Virus record (IMG/VR): IMGVR_UViG_3300045837_000213 | Coordinates: 29,432-93,431 of that record | Strand: one strand, 5' to 3' | Length of the DNA stretch: 64,000 bases | Source: a virus | Taxonomy: Duplodnaviria > Caudoviricetes | In this document: one piece after another, positions 10,088 to 59,648 of the stretch | How the letters are laid out: the number at the start of each line of letters is the position of its first letter | Position numbering within the stretch: the first letter of the stretch is position 1 | The notes under the pieces: generated by a model | What the model was told of the DNA's origin: nothing | The model's database searches: none | Seen by the model: the letters and a program-made list of their open reading frames with translations, nothing else | Made by a program: the position numbers and the translations under genes

Positions 10088-13000
10088 TTACCCGGTGGCG
10101 GTCGAGGCGAGACCCGGCGAGCCGTCGAACATCTCGCAGACCTCGACGGTCAATGCGGAGGGGATCGTGCCGCCGCCCCCCGTGTTGAAGTCCTGCTGCT
10201 GCATGGCGCGCGTGTAGGTGAAGGAGCGCGCCTGCGTATGATCCACGCGCGCCTGGAGAGCGTCCTGCGCCTCGCCCGAAAGCTGACCGACGGTGGCCTG
10301 CGCCTGGTAGGGCCAGCGCACGGGCGAGACGTTGGCGACGAAGATCGGCTTCGAGAGGTCTCCGACGTAGAAGCGGATGACGCCGCTGGCGACCTCAATC
10401 GCGCACGGGGTACCTGCCACGGCGATGCGCTTCGATGAGTCGAAGGCGACTGAGCAGGGGCGCAGGTAGAGCACGCCCGACGCGACCACGGCGTCGAGAG
10501 AGCAGAAGGCCGGCGAGGGGACGAGAGCGGGGTAGCTCATCGTGAAGCTCGCGGGTGTGCCCGAGAGAGAGACAGGCGTGCCGTTCGGGATGAGCGCGAT
10601 CTGAAAGCGCCCCTCCGTGGCGTTCACGACGTAGTAAGCGCCGCTCAGGGGTGAGGCGGAGTTGAAGACCACCTGGTCGCCGTTCTGCCAGTAATGATCG
10701 GGCGCGACGATCTCATTCGTCGCCGTGTCGCGCCCGCACGCCACGGTCGCGCCCACAAGGCGGAACTGGAGCGGCGGGTAGTGCGTGCCGAGCGTGAAGT
10801 GGACTAACGAGTCGCCGTAGATGATCTGGCCGGCCTGGAAGTCGCACGTGTGCGTCGCGTCGCCCGCGGTCGAGAGCGTGCCGTCTTCCGCGACCGAGGC
10901 GATTGAGGACGTGCCGAAGAGGTACTGCCACGCGAGCGGTTCGGAGTAGCCCGTCTCGACGTAGTGCGTGCGAATCAGGGTCGCGCCGTTGAAGACGCGG
11001 ACGCGATAGACCTCGGCGACGCCGCCCGGGCCGAGCGAGCCGCGCCGGCCCTTATCCCAGGAGGCCGTCAGAGGCGAGCCGTTCGACGCGTCGAGTCGCG
11101 TGAGCTTGAGGTTCGACGGCTGCGGCAGGAAGGCGTCGGCCTGGAACGTGTACGAGGTCGCGGGCACGGTCGCGATGTCCGCGCCGGCGGCGACGAACTT
11201 ATGGTCGCGCGCGACGAGCGCCTCCGACGCGTCCACCGGCAGGAACTTGAGCGCGTCGTCCAGGACGAGCAGCCGCTCGCTCGACGAGTGCCCGCTCATC
11301 GCCGTCTGGTCTTGCGCGCGGTTGACGAGGTTCGAGAAGCGCCAGCGGTTCGCGTAGCCGCCCAGTTGCGTCGCCGTCTTGTATTGCAGGCGCTCCGACC
11401 CGACCATCAGGCGGCCCAAACCGGCCGCGATGTCCGCGTCAGTGAAGCTGGCCGTCGGCTGCACCGTCCCGTAGATGTCGGCGTCTATTGTCTCGCTCCC
11501 GGTGTTCGTCGCCGCCAACGTCGTGGCGCAGACGCCGACGCACGCGTAGCGCGTCAGGTCGCACTCCTTCCTGTAACCCGCGCCGCGGTCGACATTGACC
11601 GCGCAGCCGCGGAACGGGGCCTGCTCGTAAGAGGCGACGCCTACGTAGTAGCCCTCCTTGCCCGTCGCCGCGTCTTCCGCCGTGAGGTAGTCGGTCTCGG
11701 CGAACTGCCCGACGAGAGTCGGCGGGAAGAAGACGGCGGGCGGCGTCCACGTCGGGGGCAACAGGTTCACGGGTTCGTGGTACTGCGCGCCGGCGACGAA
11801 GACGCCCTTGAAGGCGAGCGAGCCGGGCACGGGCCCCGTCCGCTCGGAGACTCTCACCGTGTAGGTCGTGTCGCCGTCGTCTAATTCGAGAACGGTCGCG
11901 GCGGTCGCGACGAGGTACTGGTGCGGCAGGTCGAATTCGACGGCGTAGCGCCCCTCCGTCCACGCGGTCTCGCCGAGGCGCCGGGCGACCGCCGCGACCT
12001 CGTCGGGCGAGAGCGCCATCAGCGTCGTCGCCTGCTGCGGCGTCTGCGAGGTCGTCTCGTCGCGCATCCACGAGCGCGTGACGTTCATAAATTCCGCGTT
12101 CGGGTCGTAGGCCGTGAGGTCTATGCGGCGCGGCAGCTCCACGTCGTTGAGCTTGACGCTCGTTCGAACCAGCTTCGGCGCGTCGTTCGACTGCGAGTCG
12201 CCGCCCGCCTTCTGCGCGCCGAAGCCGAGGTGGTCGGGCGGCACGTGGTAGCTGGCCGCGCCCCCGCGAAGCACGGCAGTCACCGCGCCGCCTATGTGCG
12301 CGAAGTCGAAGCCCCACCGAATCTGGAGCGTCTGCGCGGCGATCTGTTTCAGCGAGGCGGGCTGCGTGACGGCCATGCCGCGCACGTAGAGAGAGGAGAG
12401 AGCCGAAAAGTCGTAGTCGGCGGTGAGCGCGCCCGAGCGCACGGCGAGGTCGTCGAGGACGGCCTGCGCCGTGATGATTGATTTCGAGCGCAGGACGGCG
12501 GTGAAGTTCGGCACCCTCTGATAGTTCGTGAGGTTGAAGCGCTCCAACACGAGGTAGCAGCGCCCCTTGTACGCGGGCGCGACCGGAAGCCCGGAGCCGT
12601 ATTCGACGGGGAACTGTGTCTGCCAGTAGGCGTCAATTATGGGGTCGGGGAGTTGCGCCTCGTTGCCGGGGTAGAAGCGGAGTGCGGAGAACGCGCCGCC
12701 GACGACCGTGGCCGAGACCATGCCCGTCGTGTCGGGCGCGGGGACGATCGAGAAGTTGGCCGCCGGGTTGTCACGGTAAACCGGGTCGAGCGGCGAGGGC
12801 GGCGCGAGGTGGTTGATCGTGGGCGGCGTGACGGGCGTCGGGTTGACCGCGCCCGTCACGCCGGGCACGCTCACCGTCAGCTTGTCGAGGAGCAGCGTCG
12901 TCGAGGAGAGATTTGTGACCTTAATCGTGTTGAGCGCGCCGGAGGCGAGCGCGAACGGCGCGGAGAAGTAGCCGAGCGCATAGACGCCGCCCGTCGAGTT

Positions 13001-13693
13001 CAACGTCGTCGTGAAGGTCGAAGTGCCGGCCGCGCCCGACCAGTCGAACCTGACCGAGACCGCCGCCGCCGCCGAGTAGAAAAAGTTGAGGCGGTAAGCA
13101 GCGCCGTTGCCGACGACGCCGTTGAATTGCAGCGACGCGTTCAGCCCCATCGAGACGGCCTTGCCGCCCGACGCCGCGGCGTCCGTGATCGTGGTCGCGC
13201 CGCCCGCCGGGGTGTTCCCCACGTATTCGGCCTCGTATGAGCCGAAGGCTTCGGGGATGCCCAGTTGCGGGCGGATGTCGTAGATGAGGTCGGCGTCGGC
13301 GTAGAGCGCGAGCAGTTCGCACTCGGTGTCGGCGAACATGATGCCGATGTCGGCCTCGTAATTGTCGTTGATGATTTGGGTCGAGCGCGCGCCCTTGCCC
13401 GACCCTTGCGTCTCGGTCGTCGTCGTCTGGAATTTCCTGATGTCGCTTAAATAGACGACGTTTCCGGCGATGCGAAACCCGTGCGCGCTCCCGTCGGGCT
13501 GCACGCCCCCATAAACCAGCGGGATCATCGAGCCGTATTCGCTATCCTGTATCTGAACAGAGCCGGAGAGTTGGCCGCGCTCCTGGGCTTTCGGCTTCGG
13601 CGTTAATAAATAATTTAATGTGAACTCCGCCGCTGAGGTTGCGGCTGCGACCGCAGCAACGAGGAGTATACTTCCTGAGATCGGATCGGCCAT
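10088..13693 (-). CDS. tail tip / host-specificity protein (GTA-like), with a CBM-like YEAE insert
   Basis: YGSMIPLVYG...RIAGNVVY, PAYKGRCYLVLE and RVPNFT motifs; follows DUF2460-DUF2163-NlpC. Confidence 0.85.
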   Translation of the reverse strand: MADPISGSILLVAAVAAATSAAEFTLNYLLTPKPKAQERGQLSGSVQIQDSEYGSMIPLVYGGVQPDGSAHGFRIAGNVVYLSDIRKFQTTTTETQGSGKGARSTQIINDNYEADIGIMFADTECELLALYADADLIYDIRPQLGIPEAFGSYEAEYVGNTPAGGATTITDAAASGGKAVSMGLNASLQFNGVVGNGAAYRLNFFYSAAAAVSVRFDWSGAAGTSTFTTTLNSTGGVYALGYFSAPFALASGALNTIKVTNLSSTTLLLDKLTVSVPGVTGAVNPTPVTPPTINHLAPPSPLDPVYRDNPAANFSIVPAPDTTGMVSATVVGGAFSALRFYPGNEAQLPDPIIDAYWQTQFPVEYGSGLPVAPAYKGRCYLVLERFNLTNYQRVPNFTAVLRSKSIITAQAVLDDLAVRSGALTADYDFSALSSLYVRGMAVTQPASLKQIAAQTLQIRWGFDFAHIGGAVTAVLRGGAASYHVPPDHLGFGAQKAGGDSQSNDAPKLVRTSVKLNDVELPRRIDLTAYDPNAEFMNVTRSWMRDETTSQTPQQATTLMALSPDEVAAVARRLGETAWTEGRYAVEFDLPHQYLVATAATVLELDDGDTTYTVRVSERTGPVPGSLAFKGVFVAGAQYHEPVNLLPPTWTPPAVFFPPTLVGQFAETDYLTAEDAATGKEGYYVGVASYEQAPFRGCAVNVDRGAGYRKECDLTRYACVGVCATTLAATNTGSETIDADIYGTVQPTASFTDADIAAGLGRLMVGSERLQYKTATQLGGYANRWRFSNLVNRAQDQTAMSGHSSSERLLVLDDALKFLPVDASEALVARDHKFVAAGADIATVPATSYTFQADAFLPQPSNLKLTRLDASNGSPLTASWDKGRRGSLGPGGVAEVYRVRVFNGATLIRTHYVETGYSEPLAWQYLFGTSSIASVAEDGTLSTAGDATHTCDFQAGQIIYGDSLVHFTLGTHYPPLQFRLVGATVACGRDTATNEIVAPDHYWQNGDQVVFNSASPLSGAYYVVNATEGRFQIALIPNGTPVSLSGTPASFTMSYPALVPSPAFCSLDAVVASGVLYLRPCSVAFDSSKRIAVAGTPCAIEVASGVIRFYVGDLSKPIFVANVSPVRWPYQAQATVGQLSGEAQDALQARVDHTQARSFTYTRAMQQQDFNTGGGGTIPSALTVEVCEMFDGSPGLASTATG

Positions 13694-13903
13694 TTTGTGA
13701 GAAAAAGAAAAATGCCAGTGGGCAGACGTAGAGGTCTGCCCCCGCTGGCATTTTCGAGGTTCCGTTTTTTCCTTGATTATAGGTCGCGGTTCGCCGTCGC
13801 GGCCCGATCAGGAGTGACGCGCGTTGCGCGCGCTGTTAATACCATGCATTATAGCCGCGCCACTTGTCAATTTGTTTCTCACGAATGGTAAAGGAGGCGA
13901 AAA

Positions 13904-14356
13904 ATGACGCGAATTTTTGCGATGGCCCTACTTTTCTCAGCCTTCGCCCTGGCGCATGGCGCTCCGCAAGTCGCCGACAGGCCAGCAGGTAAGGCCACGG
14001 TCTATTTTTACAGGCTCAAGGAGTCGGGGCCCTACATCAAGACCAAGACGAGTGTTTACTGCGACGATGAAAAGCTGGCGGAGATAGGGAACGAGAGATA
14101 TTTCGCCGCCATGCTCGAACCCGGCATTCACACGTTCAGGTCAACAGATAAGCAGAGCGGCATCGAGAAAGAATTGAAGGCTGGCGAGGTCTATTATGTG
14201 AGAATCGAAATGAATTTGACCCGGATTAAATTATTCCGCAAGCCACCTTTCAGGGTGGCGACCGTCGAGCCTGAGCAGGGTAAGTATGAGGTAAAGCGAT
14301 TGAAGCCCATAAGTGAAGGTGATGTTAAGAACCATGAGAAGGTGACATTGCGGTAA
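13904..14356 (+). CDS. DUF2846-like secreted/envelope protein (moron)
   Basis: Signal peptide; ATVYFYR...LEPGIHTF...LKAGEVYYVRI; low GC; AAGGAGG RBS. Confidence 0.7.
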   Translation: MTRIFAMALLFSAFALAHGAPQVADRPAGKATVYFYRLKESGPYIKTKTSVYCDDEKLAEIGNERYFAAMLEPGIHTFRSTDKQSGIEKELKAGEVYYVRIEMNLTRIKLFRKPPFRVATVEPEQGKYEVKRLKPISEGDVKNHEKVTLR

Positions 14357-14596
14357 TTACAATTTAGGCTCGCGCTCGTGGACGTATCTCTCAAGGCAAG
14401 TGTAGCCGTCCGCTTTGGCTTGTGCGGCGTAGCCCCTGAGCCTGGCGATGATCTGCTCCGGCGTGCCCCGCGTCGTGTCATTCAAGATCGCCGCCGCCGA
14501 GAGCACGTCACCCCGCGTAAACTCGAACTCGTCTATGACGAGGAGTAAAGCGTCCTCCAACTCCGGCCTGCCCGTGTAGTAAAACCCCCCGCTCAC
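14357..14596 (-). CDS. hypothetical protein
   Basis: GTGA overlap with the upstream HTH gene. Confidence 0.55.
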   Translation of the reverse strand: MSGGFYYTGRPELEDALLLVIDEFEFTRGDVLSAAAILNDTTRGTPEQIIARLRGYAAQAKADGYTCLERYVHEREPKL

Positions 14597-14805
14597 TTCT
14601 TCCCGCCTTTCTTTGTTGATGGCCGCCCGCCCTTATCAGGCGTGAACTCTTGAAGGTCGCGGCGTGAGATGAATTTCTTTCCCGCGATTTCAATGAATGG
14701 GAGTTTACCTTGTCTTACTAGATGGCTAATCGCCTGTTTGGTAGTGCCGCGCTCTTCCGCGGCCTGCGTGATTGTAAGGAGTTCTTCGGGGTCTATTTTC
14801 ACCAT
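14593..14805 (-). CDS. helix-turn-helix DNA-binding protein (excisionase/MerR-like), probable cassette regulator
   Basis: LLTITQAAEERGTTKQAISHLVRQGKLP; basic GGRP tail; start chosen downstream of a -10 box. Confidence 0.8.
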   Translation of the reverse strand: MVKIDPEELLTITQAAEERGTTKQAISHLVRQGKLPFIEIAGKKFISRRDLQEFTPDKGGRPSTKKGGKK

Positions 14806-14811
14806 ATACCT

Positions 14812-14932
14812 ATTATACATACCTTTTGCCGGATGACAATATGTTATGCAAATTAAATATGCGGCTTGGCAATAAATCTCTTGCCTTCCGACAAAAGGTT
14901 ATTTATAATCCTTTTGTCGCTAGACAAAAGGA
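14812..14932. promoter_or_regulatory. divergent sigma70-type promoters with repeated operator-like motif
   Basis: + strand TTGCCT(14881)-17-TATAAT(14904); - strand TTGTCA-16-TATAAT (14839 to 14812); four CCTTTTGYC/GACAAAAGG copies. Confidence 0.7.
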
Positions 14933-14945
14933 AAGGCGGGCGAAC

Positions 14946-15074
14946 ATGGAAGACAAGAAAGAGCAGAAGCAGGAGACGCCGGAGGAGCGGGCCGAGCGGC
15001 AGGAGCTTAACCGGCGGATGTTCGAGTGGTTCTACGGCTACTGCGGCCAGATGGAGACGACGGTTCTATGTTAA
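14946..15074 (+). CDS. small hypothetical protein
   Basis: First ORF after the promoter; purine-rich RBS. Confidence 0.45.
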   Translation: MEDKKEQKQETPEERAERQELNRRMFEWFYGYCGQMETTVLC

Positions 15075-15427
15075 GGAAATTTCGTCCCATTACGCTCATC
15101 ACCCCTTTACAGGCGGCCACGCTTCTCGGCGTTGACCGCGCGGAACTCTTCAGGCGTTCGGGAGTCGCGGCGCACCTGGCGAAGGTGCGCCAAGGGAAAC
15201 GCTTCTCTTTCGTCCTCGAAGAAGTCGAGGCTCTCAGAAAGGAGTTACTTATGGATTACGTGATTCTATTGGCCCGCGACCCAAGCTCGCTCGCCTCTCA
15301 GGTAAACGACCTTATCAAGCGCGGGTGGCAGCCTCAGGGCGGCGTCGCCGCGAGCGAAGTTCACGAGGAAGGGACGGCGGCAGCGACGCAGTGGGCGCAG
15401 GCGATGGTTAAGCCCCAGTCGGAGTAA
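15068..15427 (+). CDS. HTH-like domain in frame with a DUF1737-like domain (internal start at 15251)
   Basis: QAATLLGVDR; AAGGAG before ATG 15251; VNDLIKRGWQPQGGV. Confidence 0.6.
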   Translation: MLRKFRPITLITPLQAATLLGVDRAELFRRSGVAAHLAKVRQGKRFSFVLEEVEALRKELLMDYVILLARDPSSLASQVNDLIKRGWQPQGGVAASEVHEEGTAAATQWAQAMVKPQSE

Positions 15428-15458
15428 ACGAACATTCCTCAGGAAGGGAGAGGGATTC

Positions 15459-15872
15459 ATGGCACAACGGGAAAGCACGGACGATATGTATTCATTACTC
15501 AAGAGGCGTTTCGACTGCTCGGAGCGGGCCGCGCTCGTCAGGCGGAAATTCGAGGTGCTGACGGTCGGGCGCGTCTCTTACCTGATTCAGTCAATCGTCT
15601 CCGAGGAGCAGGACACCTTCAAAGAGAGGTTCAACCGCCCGATCACCTTCGAGCAGGCGAAGGAGTTGGCGTCGCGGCTCCTGACGGGCGACTTCGGCGG
15701 CGGCGACGGGCAGATTCACGCCCTCATCGAGCTAATCGTCGGGATCGCCTACGAGGAGGATCACGTCGAGCGCGAACGGCTTGCGATGAGCGCTATCCGC
15801 GAGGCGTTCTTTTTCTCGGAGGCCCACGACGAAGCTTTGAACCAATTTTTCCATTGCGGGCCGAAGCAATGA
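15459..15872 (+). CDS. hypothetical protein
   Basis: GGAGAGG RBS; coupled to the HNH gene. Confidence 0.65.
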   Translation: MAQRESTDDMYSLLKRRFDCSERAALVRRKFEVLTVGRVSYLIQSIVSEEQDTFKERFNRPITFEQAKELASRLLTGDFGGGDGQIHALIELIVGIAYEEDHVERERLAMSAIREAFFFSEAHDEALNQFFHCGPKQ

Positions 15873-16174
15873 GGCGAAGATTGACTCAGGCGGAAAAGTT
15901 GCGACGGCTCTTCCAAAGGCGTCGTATGGCTACGGCCCGGCGGATGCTACGCCGGGCCGCGTCATACGGCGTAAGGGCCGAACATGTGACCCTCGACGAG
16001 ATCATCGAGCGCGACGGAACGCGCTGCCACCTTTGCGGCTTAGAAACAGACGTGGACGATAGGACTCACGACCACGTTGTGCCTCTCGTCAGGGGCGGGG
16101 AGCATACGACTATCAACTTACGCATCGCCCACAGGCGGTGTAATTCAATGAAGGGCGGTAAGAGTCACGCCTGA
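15869..16174 (+). CDS. HNH endonuclease
   Basis: RDGTRCHLCG...DHVVPLVRGGEH...NLRIAHRRCNSMKG. Confidence 0.9.
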   Translation: MRRRLTQAEKLRRLFQRRRMATARRMLRRAASYGVRAEHVTLDEIIERDGTRCHLCGLETDVDDRTHDHVVPLVRGGEHTTINLRIAHRRCNSMKGGKSHA

Positions 16175-16193
16175 TTCTAAAACGAGTTTTCTT

Positions 16194-16273
16194 GGGCGGG
16201 CATGGCTCGGTGAGGTAGGGCAACGCATGGAACGGTTTGGCCCGGCGCAGTATGGCCTGGCAAGGCATGGTTC
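16194..16273 (+). repeat. GGY-NN pentamer array 1 (16 units; putative guide RNA)
   Basis: GGGCG GGCAT GGCTC GGTGA GGTAG GGCAA CGCAT GGAAC GGTTT GGCCC GGCGC AGTAT GGCCT GGCAA GGCAT GGTTC. Confidence 0.9.
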
Positions 16274-16288
16274 AAACGCAAAAGGAGC

Positions 16289-16918
16289 ATGAGAATGTCA
16301 AACATCGTCAAGGCGAAAATCACGATCAGGGGTATGCGTCCGCTCTTACAACATCATTTCGGGCCGGACGCGTTGCCTTTGGAAAAGCAGGAGAAAGACG
16401 GCGTGGCGGGGAACTCGCCCAACGAGTGGCGGAAGACGGCGATGGTCACTAAAGACGGCCAGCTTTACCTTGAGCCGACCTACGCCTTTGCCACAATCCG
16501 CGACGCGGCGAAGTACACGAAAAAGGGGAGAGGCTCACTCCAAACCGCCGTCGCCGCCACCCTTCAAGTGCTGGACGACAGGATTTTGATTGATAGGTTT
16601 TTTCCGGGCTTCCCGAACGGACATGCCTTCGACATCCAGAAGGTCGAGCCGCCTTCGCTCGACAGGGAGCTTCCGGTTTACCTCGACGTGCAGTCTGTGA
16701 GGAATCCGACCACCAAAGCCCGCAACGTCAGGTACAGGGTGGCCGCATCCTCCGGCTGGTCGTGTTCGTTTACGATCATGTTCGACAAGACAGTCGTTGA
16801 CCGTAACCAGATGCAAGCTGTCCTTAATGACGCCGGCACTCTCGTCGGTATTGCCGACGGCAGAAGCGTTGGGTTTGGCAGGTTTTCCGTTGAAGCTTTC
16901 GACTTCTTAGAGTCTTAA
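16289..16918 (+). CDS. stand-alone Cas7/RAMP-like RNA-binding protein
   Basis: N-terminal strand ITIRGMRPLL; WSCSFTI; C-terminal Gly-rich loop GIADGRSVGFGRF; AAGGAG RBS (start 16289 or 16295); no other cas genes in the window. Confidence 0.8.
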   Translation: MRMSNIVKAKITIRGMRPLLQHHFGPDALPLEKQEKDGVAGNSPNEWRKTAMVTKDGQLYLEPTYAFATIRDAAKYTKKGRGSLQTAVAATLQVLDDRILIDRFFPGFPNGHAFDIQKVEPPSLDRELPVYLDVQSVRNPTTKARNVRYRVAASSGWSCSFTIMFDKTVVDRNQMQAVLNDAGTLVGIADGRSVGFGRFSVEAFDFLES

Positions 16919-16921
16919 CGC

Positions 16922-16987
16922 GGTGAGGCGGGGCAGGGTTCGGTATGGCGGGGCTTGGCGGTGGCCGGGCTTGGCGAGGCAAGGTCA
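16922..16987 (+). repeat. GGY-NN pentamer array 2 (13 units; putative guide RNA)
   Basis: GGTGA GGCGG GGCAG GGTTC GGTAT GGCGG GGCTT GGCGGT GGCCG GGCTT GGCGA GGCAA GGTCA. Confidence 0.9.
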
Positions 16988-17057
16988 CATACTGAAATCT
17001 GCTTCGGTCGCTCCACGGTCGAGGGCTTCGAGTTCATAGATTCATAAAGTTCCACTC

Positions 17058-17144
17058 GGCTTGGCTGCGGCTTGGCTGGTCATGGCAGGCTTCGGCTCGG
17101 TAGGGCAAGGCGATGGCAGGTTTGGGCTTGGCTAGGCGAGGAAC
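17058..17144 (+). repeat. GGY-NN pentamer array 3 (17 units; putative guide RNA)
   Basis: GGCTT GGCTGC GGCTT GGCTG GTCAT GGCAG GCTTC GGCTC GGTAG GGCAA GGCGAT GGCAG GTTTG GGCTT GGCTA GGCGA GGAAC. Confidence 0.85.
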
Positions 17145-17146
17145 GA

Positions 17147-17443
17147 ATGCCCAAGAAGCGACAGCCGCGCGAAATCTGGCTTAAGACGAAGCGCAGAATC
17201 TACGAGCGAGACGGGGGCTTATGTCAATACCCGTCTGGCAAGCATCCTGTCGCATTTGAGGAATCACATTGCGACCACATCCAGAGCGGGAAGCGAGCAA
17301 CGAACGCCGATAGCAACCTCCGAACTCTCTGCCGGATGCATCACGTCTTGAGAGCAGATAAGCGGCACAGGGGGCTAGTTGCCGCTGCCCTCCGAGATGG
17401 TATTATTGATGCCGGCTGGCGCAGTCAGGTATGGGAAGATTGA
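17147..17443 (+). CDS. HNH endonuclease
   Basis: RDGGLCQYP...HCDHIQSG...NADSNLRTLCRMHH; GAGGA RBS before MPKKRQ. Confidence 0.85.
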   Translation: MPKKRQPREIWLKTKRRIYERDGGLCQYPSGKHPVAFEESHCDHIQSGKRATNADSNLRTLCRMHHVLRADKRHRGLVAAALRDGIIDAGWRSQVWED

Positions 17444-17452
17444 ATTTCACGG

Positions 17453-17522
17453 GGCATGGCAGTGTTCGGCTAGGGTAGGTTAGGTTCGGCAAGGCGTGGC
17501 TCGGTAAGGCGTGGCAAGGAGA
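17453..17522 (+). repeat. GGY-NN pentamer array 4 (14 units; putative guide RNA)
   Basis: GGCAT GGCAG TGTTC GGCTA GGGTA GGTTA GGTTC GGCAA GGCGT GGCTC GGTAA GGCGT GGCAA GGAGA. Confidence 0.9.
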
Positions 17523-17553
17523 AAGGGCGGATGAACTCCGCCCTTTCTATTTT
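17520..17553 (+). terminator. intrinsic terminator closing the RAMP/HNH operon
   Basis: AGAAAGGGCGGA-TGAAC-TCCGCCCTTTCT followed by ATTTT. Confidence 0.85.
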
Positions 17554-17637
17554 GAAGTGATCGGGGCGCGTTGGCTATGGCGAACCCGCGCCCCTCCGGT
17601 GATAAGAAAATGCCAGCACAACCTTACCACCAAAACT

Positions 17638-18120
17638 TCACACGTCTTCTAGCGCGGCTATTTCGCGGACTCGGAACGCCGAAACATTAAAAATCGGATC
17701 AGTCCAGCGGCCTTCCGTCACACACCGCGTGGCGCGATAACGGTAGGCGTGAACGCAGCGCAGATTGTCCACCTCGTTAAGCGTCACGACTCCACAATGC
17801 TTTGCCGGTTCATTCAACCTATAGCAACGGGTCACTACATCGCCGGGCCTTGCGTCCCGCCAATGTTGCAGCCTCACCATGTGCTCGGCGAGTTTCGTAT
17901 CTAACAAGTCGCCTTCGGGAACGATATGGTATTCATAATCGTGTAGCTCGAAACCGCAGATGTCTGCCGCCGCCAGCAATACGCCCAAACAATCAAAGCC
18001 GACATCGCGCGAGCGACCCCGGTAGGCATACGGCGAGCCGACGAGGGAGCGCGCCGCGGCGACGAAGGCCGCGCGCAGCTCGTCCGCCGTCGGGTTAGGT
18101 GTGAGGGTTATTTCGGCCAC
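17638..18120 (-). CDS. NlpC/P60 tail-associated peptidase
   Basis: AARSLVGSPY...GFDCLGV...KHCGV...VHAY; GTG start overlapping the DUF2163 stop. Confidence 0.85.
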   Translation of the reverse strand: MAEITLTPNPTADELRAAFVAAARSLVGSPYAYRGRSRDVGFDCLGVLLAAADICGFELHDYEYHIVPEGDLLDTKLAEHMVRLQHWRDARPGDVVTRCYRLNEPAKHCGVVTLNEVDNLRCVHAYRYRATRCVTEGRWTDPIFNVSAFRVREIAALEDV

Positions 18121-18920
18121 GAGTAGAGTTTGTTTCTGCCGGGGATGGCCGGCTCGCCGCGGAAGAATTCTGCCCGCCCCTTCTTGATGCAGGCGGGGAA
18201 GGTGTGCGCGCAGCCTTCGGAGAGGACGACCGTGTCGCCTATGGCGACGGCGTGCCTCATGTTCTCGACGAGCTGCACGGTGAGCGTCCCGCCCGACTGA
18301 GAACTGTTGCTGATCTGACCCGACAGGCCGTTGTTCGCGCCGGACGTGAAGGTGATCTTGCCGCGCTGGTAGTAGTTGTCTTCCGGCTCGGTGAGCGTAA
18401 ACGTCACGACGTCGCGCGCGGTGAAGCCGGTCACGGTCGCCGTCGCCTTGTTGGGCGTCGCGCCGCACTGTGTCGAGCCGAAACCCGTGCGGCACGTGTC
18501 CTGGTAGGTGTCCCCGACCGGCTGGTTGAAGAGGAGCGCCACGTCGAGGATTTCGCACTTCATCGCGCCGGCGTCATAGACGACCGAGTTGAGCACCCCG
18601 CGCCACGTCTCCTCGACCGTCCCCGTGTCCCAGCGGTACTTCCTGATCTCGACGCGCGCGCCGTCCCACTTGCCGCCCAACAGGTCTTCCTTCGTCACCC
18701 CGGCTGCGCTCATCGAAAGCCCGATCTCCATGTTTCCGGGTTCGAGGTTTTCGACCTGCTGCTCCTGCGAGGGGCGCAGGTCGGCGACCGCGTATGTGAC
18801 TCCCGCGTAGGTGACCGGGCGCGTCGCGCTCGTCACGTCCACGCCCGAACCGTCCAAGGCGATCAGGCGCCAGAGCGTCGTGTACCGGGAGAGCTGCGTG
18901 ATGTCTATGGTCGCGGGCAT
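18108..18920 (-). CDS. DUF2163 / BR0599-type tail hub protein
   Basis: CRTGFGSTQCG, FTSGANNG and GCAHTFPAC...FRGEPAIPG motifs. Confidence 0.85.
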   Translation of the reverse strand: MPATIDITQLSRYTTLWRLIALDGSGVDVTSATRPVTYAGVTYAVADLRPSQEQQVENLEPGNMEIGLSMSAAGVTKEDLLGGKWDGARVEIRKYRWDTGTVEETWRGVLNSVVYDAGAMKCEILDVALLFNQPVGDTYQDTCRTGFGSTQCGATPNKATATVTGFTARDVVTFTLTEPEDNYYQRGKITFTSGANNGLSGQISNSSQSGGTLTVQLVENMRHAVAIGDTVVLSEGCAHTFPACIKKGRAEFFRGEPAIPGRNKLYSWPK

Positions 18921-18934
18921 GAGGGAACGGCGGG

Positions 18935-19017
18935 TGGTATCAAACCGGCATCAAACTGGTATCAAACTGGTATCAACCAAGGTTTATCAAGAGAGCTTTA
19001 TCAACATTGGTTGATAC
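18935..19017. repeat. 11-bp tandem TGGTATCAAAC repeats plus further TATCAA sites
   Basis: Four tandem units at 18935-18978, two TTTATCAA, one inverted copy at 19007-19017. Confidence 0.8.
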
Positions 19018-19671
19018 TCATTCCCGGTCTTCTATCAGCAGAAGTTCGGGCTGCTCGCCGAGCGCCTTTTTGGTCGAGACGGCGAGCTTAAACAACTCCC
19101 AATCGACCTCGTCGTCCTTGAAGCGGACGGGCACGTAGAAATTCCCGTCCCACGTCGGAGCTGCCGCCGGCGGCGAGGTGAACGTCACCAGCCCCGTCGT
19201 GTAATCAATCGAGTAGCCGGAGGTGACGAGCGCGTTGGAGTCGTAGATGAGTACCGTGCCCGATTGAGGGCGAGTGATCTTGCGCGCGTGCGTGCGGTAG
19301 GAATTCGAGTAGAGCTTTTGCAGTTGGAAGACGGTCGTCGAGCCGCCGTAGCTCTCCGCGACGCCCTGCTCGAAGCAGCCGCCCGAATTCGGTATCACGT
19401 CCTGCGTGTGAATGACCGAATAGTCCGACCAGTCGGTCAGCAGGAAAGAGATCTCCGGCCCGTTGCAGGCGTAGAAGAAGGCGCGCACCAGGCGCACGTG
19501 GTCGAGCGTGCGGATGCCCGGCGTGCAGTCGAACGTGTGGCGCGAGTCCTGCCACAGCGGGGTGCGTACCTCGACGCCCGACGTGCCCTCCTGGATGTCG
19601 GTCGAGAACTGCACGCCGCCGCCGATCTTCTGCACGTTGTTTAAGGGGAAGACAACGGGATCCACAGCCAT
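19018..19671 (-). CDS. DUF2460 (TIGR02217-like) distal tail protein
   Basis: SGVEVR..LW, FLLTDWSDY, FQLQKLY and FYVPVRF motifs. Confidence 0.85.
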   Translation of the reverse strand: MAVDPVVFPLNNVQKIGGGVQFSTDIQEGTSGVEVRTPLWQDSRHTFDCTPGIRTLDHVRLVRAFFYACNGPEISFLLTDWSDYSVIHTQDVIPNSGGCFEQGVAESYGGSTTVFQLQKLYSNSYRTHARKITRPQSGTVLIYDSNALVTSGYSIDYTTGLVTFTSPPAAAPTWDGNFYVPVRFKDDEVDWELFKLAVSTKKALGEQPELLLIEDRE

Positions 19672-19700
19672 CTCAAATCACCTTCATGCGTTTGTATGCA

Positions 19701-22700
19701 TTAAGCGGGTTGGAATTGGAGGAGCTGCGCGCGGGCGGCGCGCCCGATCTGGCGGCCCGTCTTGCGCGCGCGCCCGCGCCCGGCTGACGTGTCCTCGTCG
19801 GCGCGGACGAAGACCTGCACGGCCCCGACCGAGACGCCGCCGCCGAAGGAAGAGCGCGACGCGTAAGACGGCGGCGTGTAGCCGGAGGCGAAACCGCCCG
19901 CGGCGAACGACCCGCCGCTGAGGCCCGTCATGCCGAGATAAGCCGCGAGCAGTTGCCTCATGCGACCGCGCTGCGCCGGGTCGGTCGTCAAGACGACCTC
20001 GTCGTAGCCGCCCTCGGCCACGCGGATGAAGCGCCCGCCCGGTCGCGCGCCGAAGATGCCGCCCGACGCGGCGTAGCCCGACGACGTGTCGGGATTGATG
20101 CCCGTCGGGTCGTCGGCCATCGTGCCGCCCGACGAGTCGTGCGGCTTGAAGAGTCCGTTGGTGAGTCCCGAAATGAAGCCGATGCCGGCGGCGGCGAGCA
20201 AGCCTTTCCAGAACGACCCTTGCGCCGCGCCCGCCGCGAGAACAGCCGCGATCGAGAGCATCGTCGAGACGATTGACTGCCCGACGCTCATCAGCGTCTT
20301 CGACTGCGCCTCGCCGGTCTTGCCGATCTGCGCGACCGAATTCTTCCACCCGTCGTTGATGGCCGTCGTGGCGGCGTGCCCCGCGCTTGAGACCGCTGAG
20401 GCGTCGGCCTTCTGAGAGTTGTTGTTGCCGCCGAGGTTGAAGAGTCGGCTGATCATCGCGCCGAACAGGCCGAAAGGCCCCAGCGCGCTCTGAACGCCGC
20501 TCTGCTGTCTCGGCTGTTGCGTCGTGCCCGTCGCCGAGCCGGGCAGCGGCGTGTTCGTCAACTGTCGGAGCAACGTCATCAGCTTCGATTCGAGCAGGTT
20601 CTCTTCCATCTTGATAATCATGTTGAGGAAGTCCTGCCCGATCTGCTGGAACATCGCCTTCCAGCCCTTCGTCCGAAGGGTCTGGAGCGCGCCGTCGATC
20701 AAGGAGATGGCCTTGTCGGCCATCTGCTTGAGCCGGTCGTTCTGCTTGGCGATTAAATCGTCCAACAATGCCAACTGACGGACGTTAGAGGATTGGCGCA
20801 CCGCCTCCATCTCGTCATCAAGGGCCTTCAACTTTTCGAGTTTTTTAACTCCGTCCTGTTCGGTCGCCTCAGTCGTCTCGCGCTCAAGTTGTAGCTCGCG
20901 TAACTTTCTCTCCTGCTGCAACTGCTCGCCTTCGAGGTCGAACTGGTACTGCTTCTGCCAGAGCGCCTGCTTGTTCTTACCCGACGCCTCCATCACCTTC
21001 AACAGCGCTTCCTGCGCCGAGCGCTGGTCTTCGGCGGTCGCGTCGGTGATCTCGGCGAGAGACTTCCTGTAGTTCTGCAACGTCGAGAGGTCGTCGGCGA
21101 CCGCCGTCTGCTCGTCCTTGTTGAATTGGGCGAACGCCTGCTTGCGTTGCAGGAAGAACGCCTTGATCTGGTCGATGGCCTCCTGCGCGGCCTCCGGGTT
21201 CGACGCGTTGGCGAGGATGGTCTTGAACGCGTCCTGCATCCCCTCGCTGTTCGTCGCGTTCACCGCGTCGTTGACCGCCTGCGAGATCATCTCCGCGAGG
21301 TCGAGGTCGGGGCCCGAGAGCGCCGACACCTCGCCCGCCCCGCCCATCGCGTGCGTGAGCGCGCCTTCGAGGACTTTGCCCTGCGCCTCGGCGACGGCGC
21401 CTAAGGCCGTGAAGCGCGCGCGCATCGCGGCGACGTGCGTCGTCGTTCCCGCCTCGATCTGGAGCTGGAGTTCCGCGTCCTGCGCGCGCTGCGCCTCTTC
21501 GAGTAAAGAGACCGCCGATTGCGCGAACTTCTGCTGTATGTCATAGCGGTGTTGTTCGCCCTCGGCGGTGTACTGCGAGAGTTTGTCCTGGTGCTCGCGC
21601 TCGGCGGCCTGCTCGCGCTGGCGGATGTCTTTGAGCTTAACGTCGCGCTTCGCGCCGTCGAGTCCGGCGGCGGCCGCCTCTTCCGCCTTGAAGCCGGCCC
21701 GCACGGCCTTGTAGCGCTCGTCTTCGAGTTGTTTGAGCGTCGAGACGTAGGACTCGTAATCGGTGAGGTTCTGGTCGAGGAAGCGCTTGGCGATCTGGTT
21801 GCCCTGCTGATAGACCGACTCTGCCTCGCGCAAGTCTATCTGCGCTGATTCCAGCGCGGCGTCGGCCATCTCGTTGCCGGCCTTGCGCCCCTTGCGGCCG
21901 CCGCCCGACTTCTCGCCCATCAGCCCGGAGACGTGTTTCGCATAATCATCTTGCGCCTTCTTCGTCGCGGCTTTGACAGCGGCATCGGCCTGCATCAGCC
22001 CGAGCATGAAAGGCGACGGCGGCTGCGCCAGGCCCCGCGCGAGCGCCGAGCCGACGCCCGCGTTGCCGCGCGCGTAATAGTCCTGCGCCGCCCTCTCGCG
22101 CATCGCGTATGGCGCGGTGAATTTGCCGCCCGAAGCGGCGCGCTCTTCCGACGTGCGCCCGTCGCCCGACGCGTAACCGCTGACCGCCTGAATGACCGAG
22201 AGTGCCGCGCGCCACGCGACGGCCACCTCGTGCGCCTTCTCGATGACGGCCAGCGCGACGCCGCCGACGATCTGCCCCCACGTCCTGAAATCGTCGCCGT
22301 TCTGAGAGAGCCACTTCGAGAGGTTGTCGAAGAGCGCCTCGAAGATGGGCATGACCTCCTCGCCCACCTTGACTTTCATCACGTCGAACTGCGCGGCGAG
22401 CAACTTCTGCTTGGCCTCGAACTCCTGCGCCGCCGCCGCGTCCTTGTCCGACAGCACCGCGCCGAGGTCTTCGAGGTGCTTGATGAACGTCGGCAGGTCG
22501 CCGTGCGCCTGCGCGATGATCGCCAGCATCGCCTTGCCGCCGCGCCCGAACGCCTCCATCGCCAGTGCCGTCTTCGTCGTGCCGTCAGGCAGCTTCGACA
22601 GGACGGTGAACATCCCTTCGAGCGCCTTCTGGTTGTCGCGCACGTCCACGTTCGCGTCCTTCAAAACGCGCGACAGTTTCGACGACTTCTCGGCGCCGGC

Positions 22701-23699
22701 CTCTAACTTCTTCTCGAAGATGCCGAGGCCTGCGCCGATCTGATTGAACGAGACGCCGACCTGTGAGGCGGCCACGTCGAGCGCGTTCAGTTCGTGCGCC
22801 GTGTAGCCCGTCTCCATCGAGAGGTCTTTGTATTTCGCCCCGACCTCGGCGGCTGAACTGGCGAGCTGATAAGCGCCGTACACGACGCCGACAGACGCGG
22901 CGGCGACCGCCGCGAGTGCCGCGACGACGAGGAGTAGCGGCCCGGAGACTTCGCCCAGCATGGCGACGAGGCCGCCGCCGGCGGAGGCCAGCCCGGCCAG
23001 CCCCTGCTCTGCCGTCGAGGCCGCGCCCTTCAGAGACGCCAGTTCCTTCTCCGTGTCGGCGATCTGAACTTTCGTGTTGCCGAGCGCGCGCGTCGCGCTG
23101 CGCTCCATGTTCCCGAACTTGGCGGCGGCGCGGTCGACCTCGTTCGCCAACTCCTGCGAGATGCCGCCCGTCGCGCCGAGAATGAGCGCGTCACGTTCTT
23201 TCGCGCCCGCCGTGTTGTTGTAGTTGCGGAGAAAATCGGAGGAGAAGCTCTGCCCCGTGCGGCGCTGGAGGTCGTCGACCAGCCGCTGCGTGCCGCCGGC
23301 GAAGTCCGACGTGATGAGCGACGCCTTGGCGCGCAGCGAGGCGAGTTTCGATTCGAGGCCGACTATCGACATACCCAACTGCTCGACCTGCTTGCGCGCC
23401 GACACAATCGCCGTCTCGCTGGCCTGCCCCGCCGTGAAGAAGCTCTGTCGCAGGGATGAGGCGCGCCGCTCGACCTGCGCGAGCACGCCGCCGACTAAGG
23501 GCACGCGCTGGAGTATGCGCGCCGTCGCCTGGTCGAGTCCGGTGAACGCCTGCGAGCCGACGCGCGAGTAGGTGCGGTCAATTCTGGCCGCCGCGTCGCC
23601 GAGGCTGCGCTCCATGCGCGCGAGCTTGGCCTCGACCGGCGTGATGTCGGCGTCGGCGGTGACGAGGATCGAACCTATTTCGTTACCGGCTAAGTCCAC
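19701..23699 (-). CDS. tape measure protein
   Basis: 1332 aa, Ala-rich helical; C-terminal AEGGYDEVV...FAAGG; position in the tail operon. Confidence 0.9.
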   Translation of the reverse strand: MDLAGNEIGSILVTADADITPVEAKLARMERSLGDAAARIDRTYSRVGSQAFTGLDQATARILQRVPLVGGVLAQVERRASSLRQSFFTAGQASETAIVSARKQVEQLGMSIVGLESKLASLRAKASLITSDFAGGTQRLVDDLQRRTGQSFSSDFLRNYNNTAGAKERDALILGATGGISQELANEVDRAAAKFGNMERSATRALGNTKVQIADTEKELASLKGAASTAEQGLAGLASAGGGLVAMLGEVSGPLLLVVAALAAVAAASVGVVYGAYQLASSAAEVGAKYKDLSMETGYTAHELNALDVAASQVGVSFNQIGAGLGIFEKKLEAGAEKSSKLSRVLKDANVDVRDNQKALEGMFTVLSKLPDGTTKTALAMEAFGRGGKAMLAIIAQAHGDLPTFIKHLEDLGAVLSDKDAAAAQEFEAKQKLLAAQFDVMKVKVGEEVMPIFEALFDNLSKWLSQNGDDFRTWGQIVGGVALAVIEKAHEVAVAWRAALSVIQAVSGYASGDGRTSEERAASGGKFTAPYAMRERAAQDYYARGNAGVGSALARGLAQPPSPFMLGLMQADAAVKAATKKAQDDYAKHVSGLMGEKSGGGRKGRKAGNEMADAALESAQIDLREAESVYQQGNQIAKRFLDQNLTDYESYVSTLKQLEDERYKAVRAGFKAEEAAAAGLDGAKRDVKLKDIRQREQAAEREHQDKLSQYTAEGEQHRYDIQQKFAQSAVSLLEEAQRAQDAELQLQIEAGTTTHVAAMRARFTALGAVAEAQGKVLEGALTHAMGGAGEVSALSGPDLDLAEMISQAVNDAVNATNSEGMQDAFKTILANASNPEAAQEAIDQIKAFFLQRKQAFAQFNKDEQTAVADDLSTLQNYRKSLAEITDATAEDQRSAQEALLKVMEASGKNKQALWQKQYQFDLEGEQLQQERKLRELQLERETTEATEQDGVKKLEKLKALDDEMEAVRQSSNVRQLALLDDLIAKQNDRLKQMADKAISLIDGALQTLRTKGWKAMFQQIGQDFLNMIIKMEENLLESKLMTLLRQLTNTPLPGSATGTTQQPRQQSGVQSALGPFGLFGAMISRLFNLGGNNNSQKADASAVSSAGHAATTAINDGWKNSVAQIGKTGEAQSKTLMSVGQSIVSTMLSIAAVLAAGAAQGSFWKGLLAAAGIGFISGLTNGLFKPHDSSGGTMADDPTGINPDTSSGYAASGGIFGARPGGRFIRVAEGGYDEVVLTTDPAQRGRMRQLLAAYLGMTGLSGGSFAAGGFASGYTPPSYASRSSFGGGVSVGAVQVFVRADEDTSAGRGRARKTGRQIGRAARAQLLQFQPA

Positions 23700-23719: not shown

Positions 23720-23817
23720 GTCATGAGTGATGGGTAATGAGTGATGGGTGATGAGTGATGAGTGATGGGTAATGAGTGATGGGTGACGGGTGATGAGTGA
23801 TGAGTGACGGGTGACGA
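23720..23817. repeat. heptamer tandem repeat (GTRAYGR) x14
   Basis: GTGATGA/GTGATGG/GTAATGA/GTGACGG units, intergenic. Confidence 0.9.
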
Positions 23818-23838
23818 GTCGGAAATGAGGCGCGGGCC

Positions 23839-39974: not shown

Positions 39975-40526
39975 TTAGCGGCGGATGATCACTTCGCCTT
40001 CGGCGTCAATCTCGACGTCGGCGACGGCCTCGAGGGAGATCACGGGGAGTTCGCGGGCGTTGACGTCAACGGTCACGCGGCGGAGGAAATTTGTGATCTC
40101 GGTCTCGCCGACGAAAACGCGCGTATCCTTGCCGTGCGCCCCGACAAAGACCTTCATGCGCGCCCGCGCATGAAGGTCTTTGTCGGGGCGCCTCCTCGAC
40201 GATCTGGCGGTGCTGGGGTTGTCACTCGCCGCGAGCGCTTCGACGAGGCGCGGGCAGTCGGCGATCTCGACCTCTTCCGGCTCGGCCCGTTTCCTTTTCT
40301 CGACCTCGCGCCGCTCGAAGCGGAGCATGAGCAAATAGCTCGTCTGATCTATTTCGCACTCGACGGCCTCAGCTCCGAAGGGCGTCGTGTCGAGCAGGTT
40401 TAAGCTCACGTAGATGTCGGTGACCTGCGCCGCGCCGCTCTCGATGTCGTCGGCAAGTTTGCGCAGTTGTGAGGCGGCAGCACTCTGCGCTTCCGGCTCC
40501 AATGCGTTGATTGAAGTTTTTCTCAT
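39975..40526 (-). CDS. hypothetical protein (contains a 56-bp palindrome)
   Basis: ORF in operon orientation. Confidence 0.5.
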   Translation of the reverse strand: MRKTSINALEPEAQSAAASQLRKLADDIESGAAQVTDIYVSLNLLDTTPFGAEAVECEIDQTSYLLMLRFERREVEKRKRAEPEEVEIADCPRLVEALAASDNPSTARSSRRRPDKDLHARARMKVFVGAHGKDTRVFVGETEITNFLRRVTVDVNARELPVISLEAVADVEIDAEGEVIIRR

Positions 40527-40554
40527 TCTGAGCCCTTTACTTCTTCGCCGCGCG

Positions 40555-40701
40555 TCATCGGTTGTTTTCGGAGAGGAGGTCGCGCCAGAAAGCGGCTGTC
40601 TCCGACAGTTCGTCGGGTCGCGCGACCTCGTGCGAAAAGGCCAGAGTGCCGTCGAGGTCGACGCCGATCCACCCGCGCTCGCTATCGTTTTGGTTTCCCA
40701 A
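40555..40701 (-). pseudogene. truncated HAD-phosphatase-like remnant (48 aa)
   Basis: Hand translation MGNQNDSERGWIGVDLDGTLAF...; HAD motif I only. Confidence 0.55.
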
Positions 40702-43732: not shown

Positions 43733-44503
43733 TCAGTCCAGGCCTCCGAGGACGGCCATCTCCCTGCGCCAACGGAAGCGCGCGCGGCGCTCAAGTTCCA
43801 GGTACCAGTCGACTTCCGCGCGCAAGTTCGTGTTCTCGCTCCCGCGCACGCTCATCCTCCCGCCGTATGAGAGCCAGCGCCCGAACTTCGACGGCCCCAC
43901 GAGCCACGTCGTCGCGTCCACCGAGTGCCAGGGGAGCGCCATCAACTGGCGCTCGCTGCCGAAGCCGAAGCCGTGAATCTTTTTGGGCCAGACGCGTGCG
44001 AAGCACTGCTCGGCCCACTGGAGCTTCGAGGCGGCGTTGGCGTAGGCGACGCCTCCGAGGGCGATGCGCGGGTAGTCGCGCGCCATCTGCTCGAGTGCCT
44101 CCCACGGCTCGCCGGCGTGGAAGCAGGGGATTGCGGGGACGCCCTGGCGCCACATCTCCTCTGTGTTGCGGAGTGAGGCTTTCCAGTCGCCGATCACGTC
44201 GAGCGCGAAGACGCCGGTGAGTTGTTTGTCTTCCGCGAGCAGTTTTTTGGCGAGGTCGATGTAGTCCTGGAGCTTGATCTCCGTGCCGCTGTTGTAGGCG
44301 GAGAAGGCCCCGGAGTCGAGCACGTAGTCGCGGAAGGTGATGTCGGGGCGGGCCAGCTCGAACTGGTGGAGATAGACGTAGGAGACGAGGAGCGCCGGGA
44401 CGGGTTCGCCCGCTGGCCGCGCGCAGAGTCCCGACTTGAGGACCTGGTTCGCGCCGCCGAAGGCGAGGCGTACTGTCGGGGCTTGTAACTCGTCACTCAT
44501 CAC
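43733..44503 (-). CDS. TGT/DpdA-like transglycosylase
   Basis: LDSGAFSA, LDVIGD, PCFH.GE, IALGG, KIHGFG, SVDATTW; adjacent to queD. Confidence 0.75.
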   Translation of the reverse strand: MMSDELQAPTVRLAFGGANQVLKSGLCARPAGEPVPALLVSYVYLHQFELARPDITFRDYVLDSGAFSAYNSGTEIKLQDYIDLAKKLLAEDKQLTGVFALDVIGDWKASLRNTEEMWRQGVPAIPCFHAGEPWEALEQMARDYPRIALGGVAYANAASKLQWAEQCFARVWPKKIHGFGFGSERQLMALPWHSVDATTWLVGPSKFGRWLSYGGRMSVRGSENTNLRAEVDWYLELERRARFRWRREMAVLGGLD

Positions 44504-44557
44504 TCGTCACTCGTCGCCTGTGGCTCTTATGCAAATATGCGAGTCGAATTCGCATAA

Positions 44558-55767: not shown

Positions 55768-56157
55768 AACGGGGCGAACTTGTCTTCAGTCATCGGTCGA
55801 AACCACGGGCAAGAACGGGTATCTCAGCGCCGCCTCGGTCATCGCGGGAGGGTTCGGGCGGCTGGGAGCGAGGGGAACATCCCCCCTAATTAAGATGAAG
55901 GATTAATAGTCGGCTGTCAATAAACTATGCAAAACGGTCGGTAAATTATGCGGACTTGAGATGAGACTTTAGAGGGCGGGGATGCAATCAGGCCGATGGA
56001 GGCGGCCTTTGTGCGGAAATCTTACGCGCGTGAAATGCAAACTCTTGAGGCAAACTGAAGGACATTCAGTCAGGCGTGACAAAACATAGAAATATATTCA
56101 GAGAATCAAAGGCCGTGAAAATAATTCGGCTATTTCAAAAATAGTGTTGAAGGGCAG

Positions 56158-58396: not shown

Positions 58397-58623
58397 TCAT
58401 CCTCCATCTGCCAATCGGCGCGCAGACGCCGAGCTATCTCACGCAGGTCGTTGCGGCCATCCTTCTCGGCTCGGCGCTCTACGGAGAGGACGAAGCTGAG
58501 GCGCATATTCGCCAGCATGTGCGGCGGGGGCGGACTCGCGCCGGCGCGCAGCACGGAAAGGAAATATCTCCACCATTCGCGGCGGCACTTCCACGCTTCC
58601 ATCCAAGTCTGTTGTGCGTACAT
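58393..58623 (-). CDS. hypothetical passenger protein
   Basis: ATGA coupling. Confidence 0.45.
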   Translation of the reverse strand: MYAQQTWMEAWKCRREWWRYFLSVLRAGASPPPPHMLANMRLSFVLSVERRAEKDGRNDLREIARRLRADWQMEDE

Positions 58624-58756
58624 GAGATTAAGGTTGGGCGCGCCCGCCCTCCCGTGGAAAGTAACGACCGCTTACGCGACCGGCGTCGCACGTCAGACGC
58701 TCATACGACCCTTGCGGGTCGGGCGGAGCCACAGGAGGACAAGGCGCATAAGAAGC

Positions 58757-59536: not shown

Positions 59537-59620
59537 TGTCTCCGCTCCTTCTGTGGGGCCATAGCCCCTGTCGCCCCTTCGGATCGCCGTCGCCCGGCCT
59601 CGCTTAATTGCGATGGACTA

Positions 59621-59648
59621 ATTATACAGATTTCCCGGAGCGTGTCAA
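59621..59648 (-). promoter_or_regulatory. consensus sigma70 promoter driving cargo and transposase
   Basis: TTGACA-16-TATAAT on the minus strand. Confidence 0.7.

What the first reader, a model, noticed from the sequence alone, without database searches (positions are those of the whole stretch)
13437..20777. Wobble-skipping targeting and self-avoidance through six-fold-degenerate codons
In all three decoded targets the unread base is codon position 3, so ordinary synonymous mutation could not escape. The only silent escape is swapping codon families for Leu, Ser or Arg. Nine of the 14 mismatched units across arrays 1-3 are exactly such swaps. Inference: the guides effectively read protein sequence, and either the carrier was recoded or the guides were selected to spare self. 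The 3'-most two or three units mostly fail to match and may form a handle.
Basis: inference. Interest (0 to 1): 0.88.

Follow-up and report, generated by a model that had tools for sequence, protein, structure and literature searches.

The report
VIPR phage recodes its own targets
A soil phage carries a recently described RNA-guided DNA-targeting system (VIPR) whose guides match the tail genes and effector gene of related phages, while its own copies differ by silent Leu/Ser/Arg codon-family swaps, an escape route the published work overlooks.

Summary
The locus is a VIPR system (Vipr, four GGY/NN guides, HNH genes) inserted in a phage tail operon. Wobble-skipping is already published; family-swap escape is not. 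In 16 self near-targets of other VIPR loci, 37 of 48 six-fold sites are swapped (18.8 expected, P about 1e-9; shuffled-guide control ratio 0.99). The 3' handle is supported (2.9 versus 0.4 unmatched units; AA-rich). Self near-targets cluster beside the cassette and a conserved HNH gene accompanies 96/116 loci, suggesting a weapon-plus-immune-flank unit, possibly RNA-guided homing. Protection, cutting and the order of events are inferred, not shown; escape from rivals' guides probably contributes. This scan noted the same swap and flank ideas on other genomes.

The parts
13694..17637 (.). VIPR cassette (GC 0.56) inserted between the NlpC/P60 gene and the tail-tip gene
   Evidence: NlpC and tail genes are directly adjacent in L001-L003, L222; GC
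16295..16918 (+). vipr gene, 207 aa RAMP-fold effector
   Evidence: family profile hits SUSP1 Vipr, PDB 36PP, E 2.8e-8; model matches Csm3/Cas7 folds
16194..16273 (+). guide array A1, 16 units; 14 informative; aimed at tail-tip gene homologs
   Evidence: 10-11/14 in four relatives
16922..16987 (+). guide array A2, 13 units; 10 informative; aimed at the vipr G-loop of rivals
   Evidence: 10/10 match in L112 vipr
17058..17144 (+). guide array A3, 17 units; 13 informative; aimed at tape-measure homologs
   Evidence: 11/13 in L221, 10/13 in L001
17453..17522 (+). guide array A4, 14 units; 11 informative; aimed at NlpC/P60 homologs; followed by a GC hairpin and T-rich run
   Evidence: 10/11 in L001 and L002; hairpin seen in sequence
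17147..17443 (+). HNH accessory gene (vap candidate), 98 aa
   Evidence: PHROG HNH hits; homolog beside 96/116 vipr loci; D43, H44, N57, H66 invariant in 40 homologs
15869..16174 (+). second HNH gene, not conserved with the system
   Evidence: Pfam HNH E 4e-9; beside 9/116 loci
13436..13477 (-). self near-target of A1, tail-tip codons 73-86 region; carrier-only TTA (13450), AGC (13447), AGG (13438)
16856..16885 (+). self near-target of A2 in the vipr G-loop; AGC and AGG swaps, one Ile/Val difference
20739..20777 (-). self near-target of A3 in the tape-measure gene; TTG (20774), TTG (20765), TTA (20756) break pairing, TTG (20768) matches
17921..17953 (-). carrier's counterpart of the A4 target in NlpC/P60; 5/11 match, differs by amino-acid changes
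17003..17047 (+). relic of another vipr 3' end between A2 and A3, starting inside the A2 target motif
   Evidence: translation beside the intact C-terminus
10088..13693 (-). tail-tip protein gene; first 50 codons AT-shifted (GC3 0.59)
   Evidence: Pfam PF13550
17638..18120 (-). NlpC/P60 minor tail gene; GC3 0.55-0.69 versus 0.78-0.95 in relatives
19701..23699 (-). tape measure gene
   Evidence: PHROG hits
14593..14805 (-). small divergent ORF, probable HTH regulator of the cassette, with back-to-back promoter-like sites at 14812-14839 and 14881-14909
   Evidence: inference from HTH_17 genes at the same position in related cassettes

Best explanation
This is a VIPR cassette used against close relatives. 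Each guide directs a Vipr filament to double-stranded DNA, reading two bases and skipping one (published mechanism, inferred to apply here). Three guides aim at conserved tail-operon genes on both sides of the insertion site as they occur in cassette-free relatives, and one at rivals' vipr gene. Because these genes are also essential to the carrier and the skipped base is the wobble base, the carrier avoids its own guides mainly through the only silent changes at read positions: CTN->TTR, TCN->AGY, CGN->AGR. Where the protein tolerates it (NlpC) amino-acid changes do the job. The swaps lower the self-match from 85-90% to 57-70%. The last 2-4 units are a non-pairing scaffold. Shown: sequence patterns, relatives' codons, statistics. 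Inferred: expression, binding, protection by the swaps, that own guides drove them.
For: Swaps 9/11 six-fold sites against 3.75 expected from each gene's codon use (P 2e-4); P 6e-4 to 2e-3 with local codon use. Carrier-only rare family at 7/8 footprint sites versus 55/564 elsewhere against L001 (P 9e-7); same codons in L002, L003, L222, L221. Each guide fits a non-self gene better: 11/14, 10/10, 11/13, 10/11. Replication: 37/48 versus 18.8 in 16 other self near-targets (P 1e-9; local null 7e-7); shuffled guides give ratio 0.99; non-self, non-vipr targets show 6/28. The two rare codons that match the guide also occur in relatives, so they need no recoding. Self near-targets sit close to their cassette (combined P 1e-7).
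Against: No relative closer than about 80% protein identity was found, so order of events is not fixed. Relatives were seen only as 4-24 kb loci, so a VIPR elsewhere in them is not excluded (one search failed). Extra carrier-only swaps lie outside current footprints (tape measure 20831-20921; tail 13543-13618). A TTA in the carrier's vipr lies in the footprint of another phage's guide. Mismatch tolerance of Vipr is not known, and no perfect target was found for A1, A3, A4.
Confidence: 0.62

Rival explanations
1. Escape from rivals: the swaps were selected against guides of other phages that attack the same conserved sites; the carrier later picked up a cassette or guides to which it was already resistant.
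For: The vipr Pro-Leu-Leu site, aimed at by a guide of L193 only, has TTR at 10/20 leucines in the ten closest homologs versus 4.2 expected (post hoc P 0.002), including the carrier. Guides A1 and A2 read a rare family at one Arg each, as if tracking an escaped rival. Swap clusters exist outside current footprints.
Against: No excess at that site over all 57 homologs (40 vs 37). Cassette-free relatives, which rivals would attack too, are unswapped at the A1 and A3 sites. Self targets are swapped far more than non-self targets.
Confidence: 0.2
2. Imported AT-rich alleles: the flanks came with the cassette from a lower-GC donor by recombination, so rare codons are a by-product of ordinary allele divergence, filtered only by loss of self-lethal guides.
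For: NlpC and the tail 5' end are AT-shifted like the cassette; A4 self-avoidance is by ordinary divergence; wobble bases in the footprints are slightly AT-richer.
Against: The excess survives local nulls. The A3 site is 3.1 kb away across genes of normal GC3, and its local GC3 equals that of L001. Against L001 the A1 and A3 footprints hold 7 swaps and only 4 amino-acid changes, the reverse of the genome-wide ratio (hand count).
Confidence: 0.13
3. Deliberate weak self-targeting: partial matches tune the phage's own late genes and vipr (autoregulation).
For: A2 lies over vipr itself; all near-targets are in one late operon.
Against: Every guide fits non-self alleles better; self matches are below the 80% used for natural targets in 10.64898/2026.04.26.720920; costly two-base swaps away from the guide are the opposite of what autoregulation predicts.
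Confidence: 0.05

Closest known systems
VIPR systems (Vipr + vrRNA + vap; SUSP1 and P. fulva type II; bioRxiv 10.64898/2026.04.26.720920, .720927)
   Same: RAMP-fold effector with conserved H20, R148, D188, R190 (SUSP1 H17, R138, D177, R179 by the alignment); GGY/NN guides of 13-17 units; 1-nt skip on the wobble base; both strands targeted; phage-borne; some guides hit other VIPRs.
   Different: Guides aim at homologs of the carrier's own neighbouring structural genes; self sites carry codon-family swaps, not reported there; 2-4 AA-rich non-pairing units at the 3' end instead of a recognised pseudoknot tail; HNH accessory gene on a phage, whereas the paper places nuclease types (III, V) in defence islands.
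SUSP1 VIPR versus F5 satellites and solo vrRNAs (bioRxiv 10.64898/2026.10.15.759431)
   Same: Wobble-aligned targeting of constrained codons; vipr-targeting guides near the start and end of the gene; lower self than non-self scores noted for vrRNA-targeting guides.
   Different: That paper concludes that escape needs amino-acid-determining changes; Leu/Ser/Arg family swaps are a silent loophole it does not mention.
Free-standing homing endonucleases and intronless homing / marker exclusion (T4 SegF, SegG, MobE; PMC2988022)
   Same: Intergenic insertion between conserved genes, target sites hundreds to thousands of bases away in neighbouring genes, HNH nuclease, flanks of shifted composition like co-conversion tracts.
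   Different: Specificity here would come from reprogrammable RNA guides with several sites on both sides; cutting and biased inheritance are untested.

Membership tests
VIPR | Vipr, a stand-alone RAMP with RRM, thumb and G-loop | tested here: met
   profile hit to SUSP1 Vipr E 2.8e-8; fold matches Csm3/Cas7; invariant G-loop and thumb residues
VIPR | Intergenic GGY/NN pentamer arrays of about 9-16 units beside vipr | tested here: met
   four arrays of 13-17 units
VIPR | Targets follow the 1-nt skip rule, skip on wobble base | tested here: met
   non-self matches 10/10, 10/11, 11/13, 11/14 in coding frame; skips of 0, 2, 3 gave nothing meaningful in the window's record
VIPR | Accessory vap gene | tested here: met
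   98-aa HNH gene beside 96/116 related loci
VIPR | vrRNA expressed, bound by Vipr, silencing or binding DNA | not testable with these tools
   needs sRNA-seq and assays
VIPR type II (SUSP1) | Conserved structured 3' tail (pseudoknot) and DNA-binding vap1 | tested here: not met
   arrays end in AA-rich units with unlike downstream sequence; vap is an HNH protein
VIPR types III/V (nuclease vap) | Type assignment by Vipr phylogeny and vap class | not testable with these tools
   the paper's supplementary tables are not held; HNH vap fits type III by the fig. S21 legend
Free-standing homing endonuclease element | Intact cassette-free allele in relatives, with targets in neighbouring conserved genes | tested here: met
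Free-standing homing endonuclease element | Nuclease cuts the cassette-free allele and is over-inherited in co-infection | not testable with these tools
   active-site residues conserved but activity unknown
CRISPR-Cas | Repeat-spacer array and cas operon | tested here: not met
   no CRISPR-like repeat family in the window; single RAMP gene

The most novel reading that the evidence does not exclude
The HNH-bearing VIPR cassette is an RNA-guided homing element: Vipr and guides bring the HNH nuclease to both flanks of the cassette-free allele in a co-infecting relative, repair from the carrier copies the cassette together with its recoded, resistant flanks, and codon-family swaps are the immunity that lets a reprogrammable drive sit beside essential genes.
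Probability: 0.3. Interest if true: 0.9.

Novelty: new variant of a known kind. Interest (0 to 1): 0.7.

Why it matters
The VIPR papers explain the gapped code as a way to make silent escape impossible. These data show a silent escape class that evolution uses repeatedly, and it answers how a PAM-less system can aim at genes its carrier shares. It gives a sequence signature (clusters of TTR/AGY/AGR at conserved sites) for present and past VIPR attack, a design rule for engineered guides (avoid Leu/Ser/Arg-rich footprints), and a direct test of mismatch tolerance. The clustering of targets around the insertion site makes the question of how VIPR cassettes spread testable with one phage cross.

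Tried and rejected
DNA-only self-matching: at chance level, so not used as evidence. Skips of 0, 2, 3 nt: no meaningful hits. Exact gapped patterns for A1 and A4 in viral contigs: none. Tail-gene search of viral contigs: none; 401 genomes of the family of G005 gave only distant tail homologs. Guide-free scan for rare-codon clusters: footprints are the top or joint-top 14-codon windows in their genes but not significant alone (P 0.25-0.74). Whole-record look-up for cassette-free relatives not available. Sequencing runs: only the probable source sample holds the DNA, identical over the stretch; no RNA holder listed; no cassette-free joint. Vipr-HNH complex prediction: no verdict. A hammerhead reading of the A2-A3 spacer was dropped by eye because it translates as a vipr C-terminal relic; no RNA family search was run. 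Literature searches for six-fold-codon escape and VIPR homing returned nothing.
Full report
What the locus is. The window is part of a 93-kb virus record from soil with portal, capsid, tape-measure, baseplate-hub, NlpC/P60 and tail-tip genes on the minus strand. Close homologs of its effector lie in Pyrinomonadaceae bins at 73-74% identity, so an acidobacterial host is likely (inference). A 3.9-kb block of GC 0.56 (13694-17637) separates the NlpC and tail-tip genes, which are adjacent in four relatives. It holds a 207-aa gene whose family profile hits SUSP1 Vipr (E 2.8e-8) and whose model matches Csm3/Cas7 folds, four GGY/NN arrays and two HNH genes. This is a VIPR system as defined in bioRxiv 10.64898/2026.04.26.720920.

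Checking the observation. With one base skipped per unit, A1, A2 and A3 fall on the tail-tip gene, the vipr G-loop and the tape-measure gene, always with the skip on codon position 3. At DNA level the matches (8/14, 7/10, 8/13) are no better than shuffled guides achieve somewhere in 93 kb. Counting swaps as matches they reach 12/14, 9/10 and 11/13, equalled by 0, 8 and 1 of 400 shuffles. Independent proof that these are homologous target sites comes from relatives, where the same guides match 10-11/14 (L001-L003, L222), 10/10 (L112 vipr) and 10-11/13 (L001, L221) without invoking swaps. A4, which has no self hit, matches the NlpC gene of L001 and L002 at 10/11; the carrier's NlpC matches 5/11 through amino-acid changes.

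Is the swap excess real? Of 11 six-fold sites where guide and gene agree on the amino acid, 9 are swapped; 3.75 are expected from each gene's codon use (P 2e-4) and about 4 from local use (P 6e-4 to 2e-3). At all 8 sites where the guide reads the common family, the carrier has the rare one. Against L001, carrier-only rare codons occur at 55/564 conserved Leu/Ser/Arg sites outside the footprints and at 7/8 inside A1 and A3. One swap is guide-side (tail Arg73). Two rare codons match the guide, but both alleles exist in relatives (TTG in L221, AGG in L112), so they look inherited.

Replication. I decoded 148 arrays from 116 related vipr loci, including 15 long phage or prophage records fetched whole or in large part. 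Sixteen other self near-targets passed z >= 4 in long reading frames, scored so that match and swap count equally. There 37 of 48 six-fold sites are swapped against 18.8 expected (P 1e-9; 21.0 and 7e-7 with a local null). Shuffled guides put through the same pipeline give 688 against 695. Non-self targets outside vipr and vap show 6/28, or 3/24 without one probable chance hit. Some loci are related, so the P values overstate independence, but the footprints are in different genes.

The 3' handle. In 24 guide-target alignments the unmatched run averages 2.9 units at the 3' end and 0.4 at the 5' end; across 148 arrays AA fills 43% and 34% of the second- and third-last units against about 5% internally. 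In SUSP1 all resolved units pair and a pseudoknot caps the RNA, so this clade seems to use repeat units themselves as scaffold (inference).

An added feature. Self near-targets lie close to their cassette: in 12 cases with at least 8 kb of flank, seven are within 400 bp of the vipr-array core (combined P 1e-7). Here A1 and A4 hit the genes about 250 and 300 bp from the two cassette edges, and A3 a gene 3.1 kb away. The flanking NlpC gene and tail 5' end are AT-shifted relative to relatives. The 98-aa HNH gene accompanies 96/116 loci with invariant D43, H44, N57, H66. This layout resembles intronless homing, where free-standing nucleases cut hundreds to thousands of bases from their gene and co-convert flanks (PMC2988022). 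It also fits a silencing weapon kept linked to its immune alleles without any cutting. A Vipr-HNH complex prediction gave no verdict.

Mechanism and rivals. Most likely the cassette attacks close relatives' late genes and vipr, and the carrier's own guides selected the swaps (0.62). Escape from rivals' guides (0.2) has some support: a guide of L193 aims at the vipr Pro-Leu-Leu codons, where the carrier and most close homologs have a TTR codon although only L193 is seen to carry that guide (10/20 versus 4.2, post hoc; no excess across all 57 homologs), and swap clusters occur outside current footprints. The two causes can coexist. Imported AT-rich alleles (0.13) explain NlpC but not A3. Autoregulation is unlikely (0.05).

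Against what is known. Wobble alignment and its anti-escape logic are published. Those papers report no self-targets above 80% and state that escape requires amino-acid-determining changes; neither mentions six-fold codons, flank targeting, homing or a repeat-unit handle in the text searched. Earlier notes of this scan reached the swap and flank ideas on other genomes; I did not check those genomes. Verdict: a new variant of a known system, with a well-supported evolutionary signature and untested function; interest 0.7.

Noticed in passing
window 17003-17047: Relic of a different vipr 3' end between A2 and A3, starting inside the motif A2 targets and carrying the guide-matched CGC; suggests guides are gained by recombination with rival cassettes at the A2 site.
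   Followed up: partly
window 13745-13755 and 17606-17616: An 11-bp motif occurs as inverted copies near the two cassette edges (2 matches, 0.01 expected), with a near copy at about 13709.
   Followed up: no
window 20831-20921 and 13543-13618: Further carrier-only TTR/AGR/AGY codons outside current footprints; possible scars of lost or rival guides.
   Followed up: partly
window 56125-60030: 307-nt inverted repeats (98%) enclose an ISL3-like transposase ORF (56158-57465, by inspection) and two cargo ORFs; an IS200-like tnpA ORF follows at 60070-60567.
   Followed up: no
window 15324-15411 and 61776-61863: The small DUF1737 gene in the cassette has an 88% identical copy elsewhere in the same phage.
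   Followed up: no
window 23723-23819 and 44488-44515: 7-bp tandem repeats, the first of about 14 copies just upstream of the tape-measure gene.
   Followed up: no
L193:9913 and L193:10625: Guides aimed at the vipr 5' region and at the HNH vap gene of other cassettes.
   Followed up: partly
L085, L086, L009, L129, L132, L194 (minus strand, upstream of vipr): Close-clade cassettes often carry one extra guide on the opposite strand, several ending in a GC hairpin.
   Followed up: no
L087/L108 (G003, G004) 40029-40598 and 60131-60700: A second, divergent vipr-like gene 3 kb from the first, with its own arrays.
   Followed up: no
L054, L059, G022 guides versus L056:5604-5704: Guides from related phages match one 2134-aa gene of L056 at 18/19, 12/12 and 12/14: near-perfect natural targets clustered in 100 bp.
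   Followed up: partly
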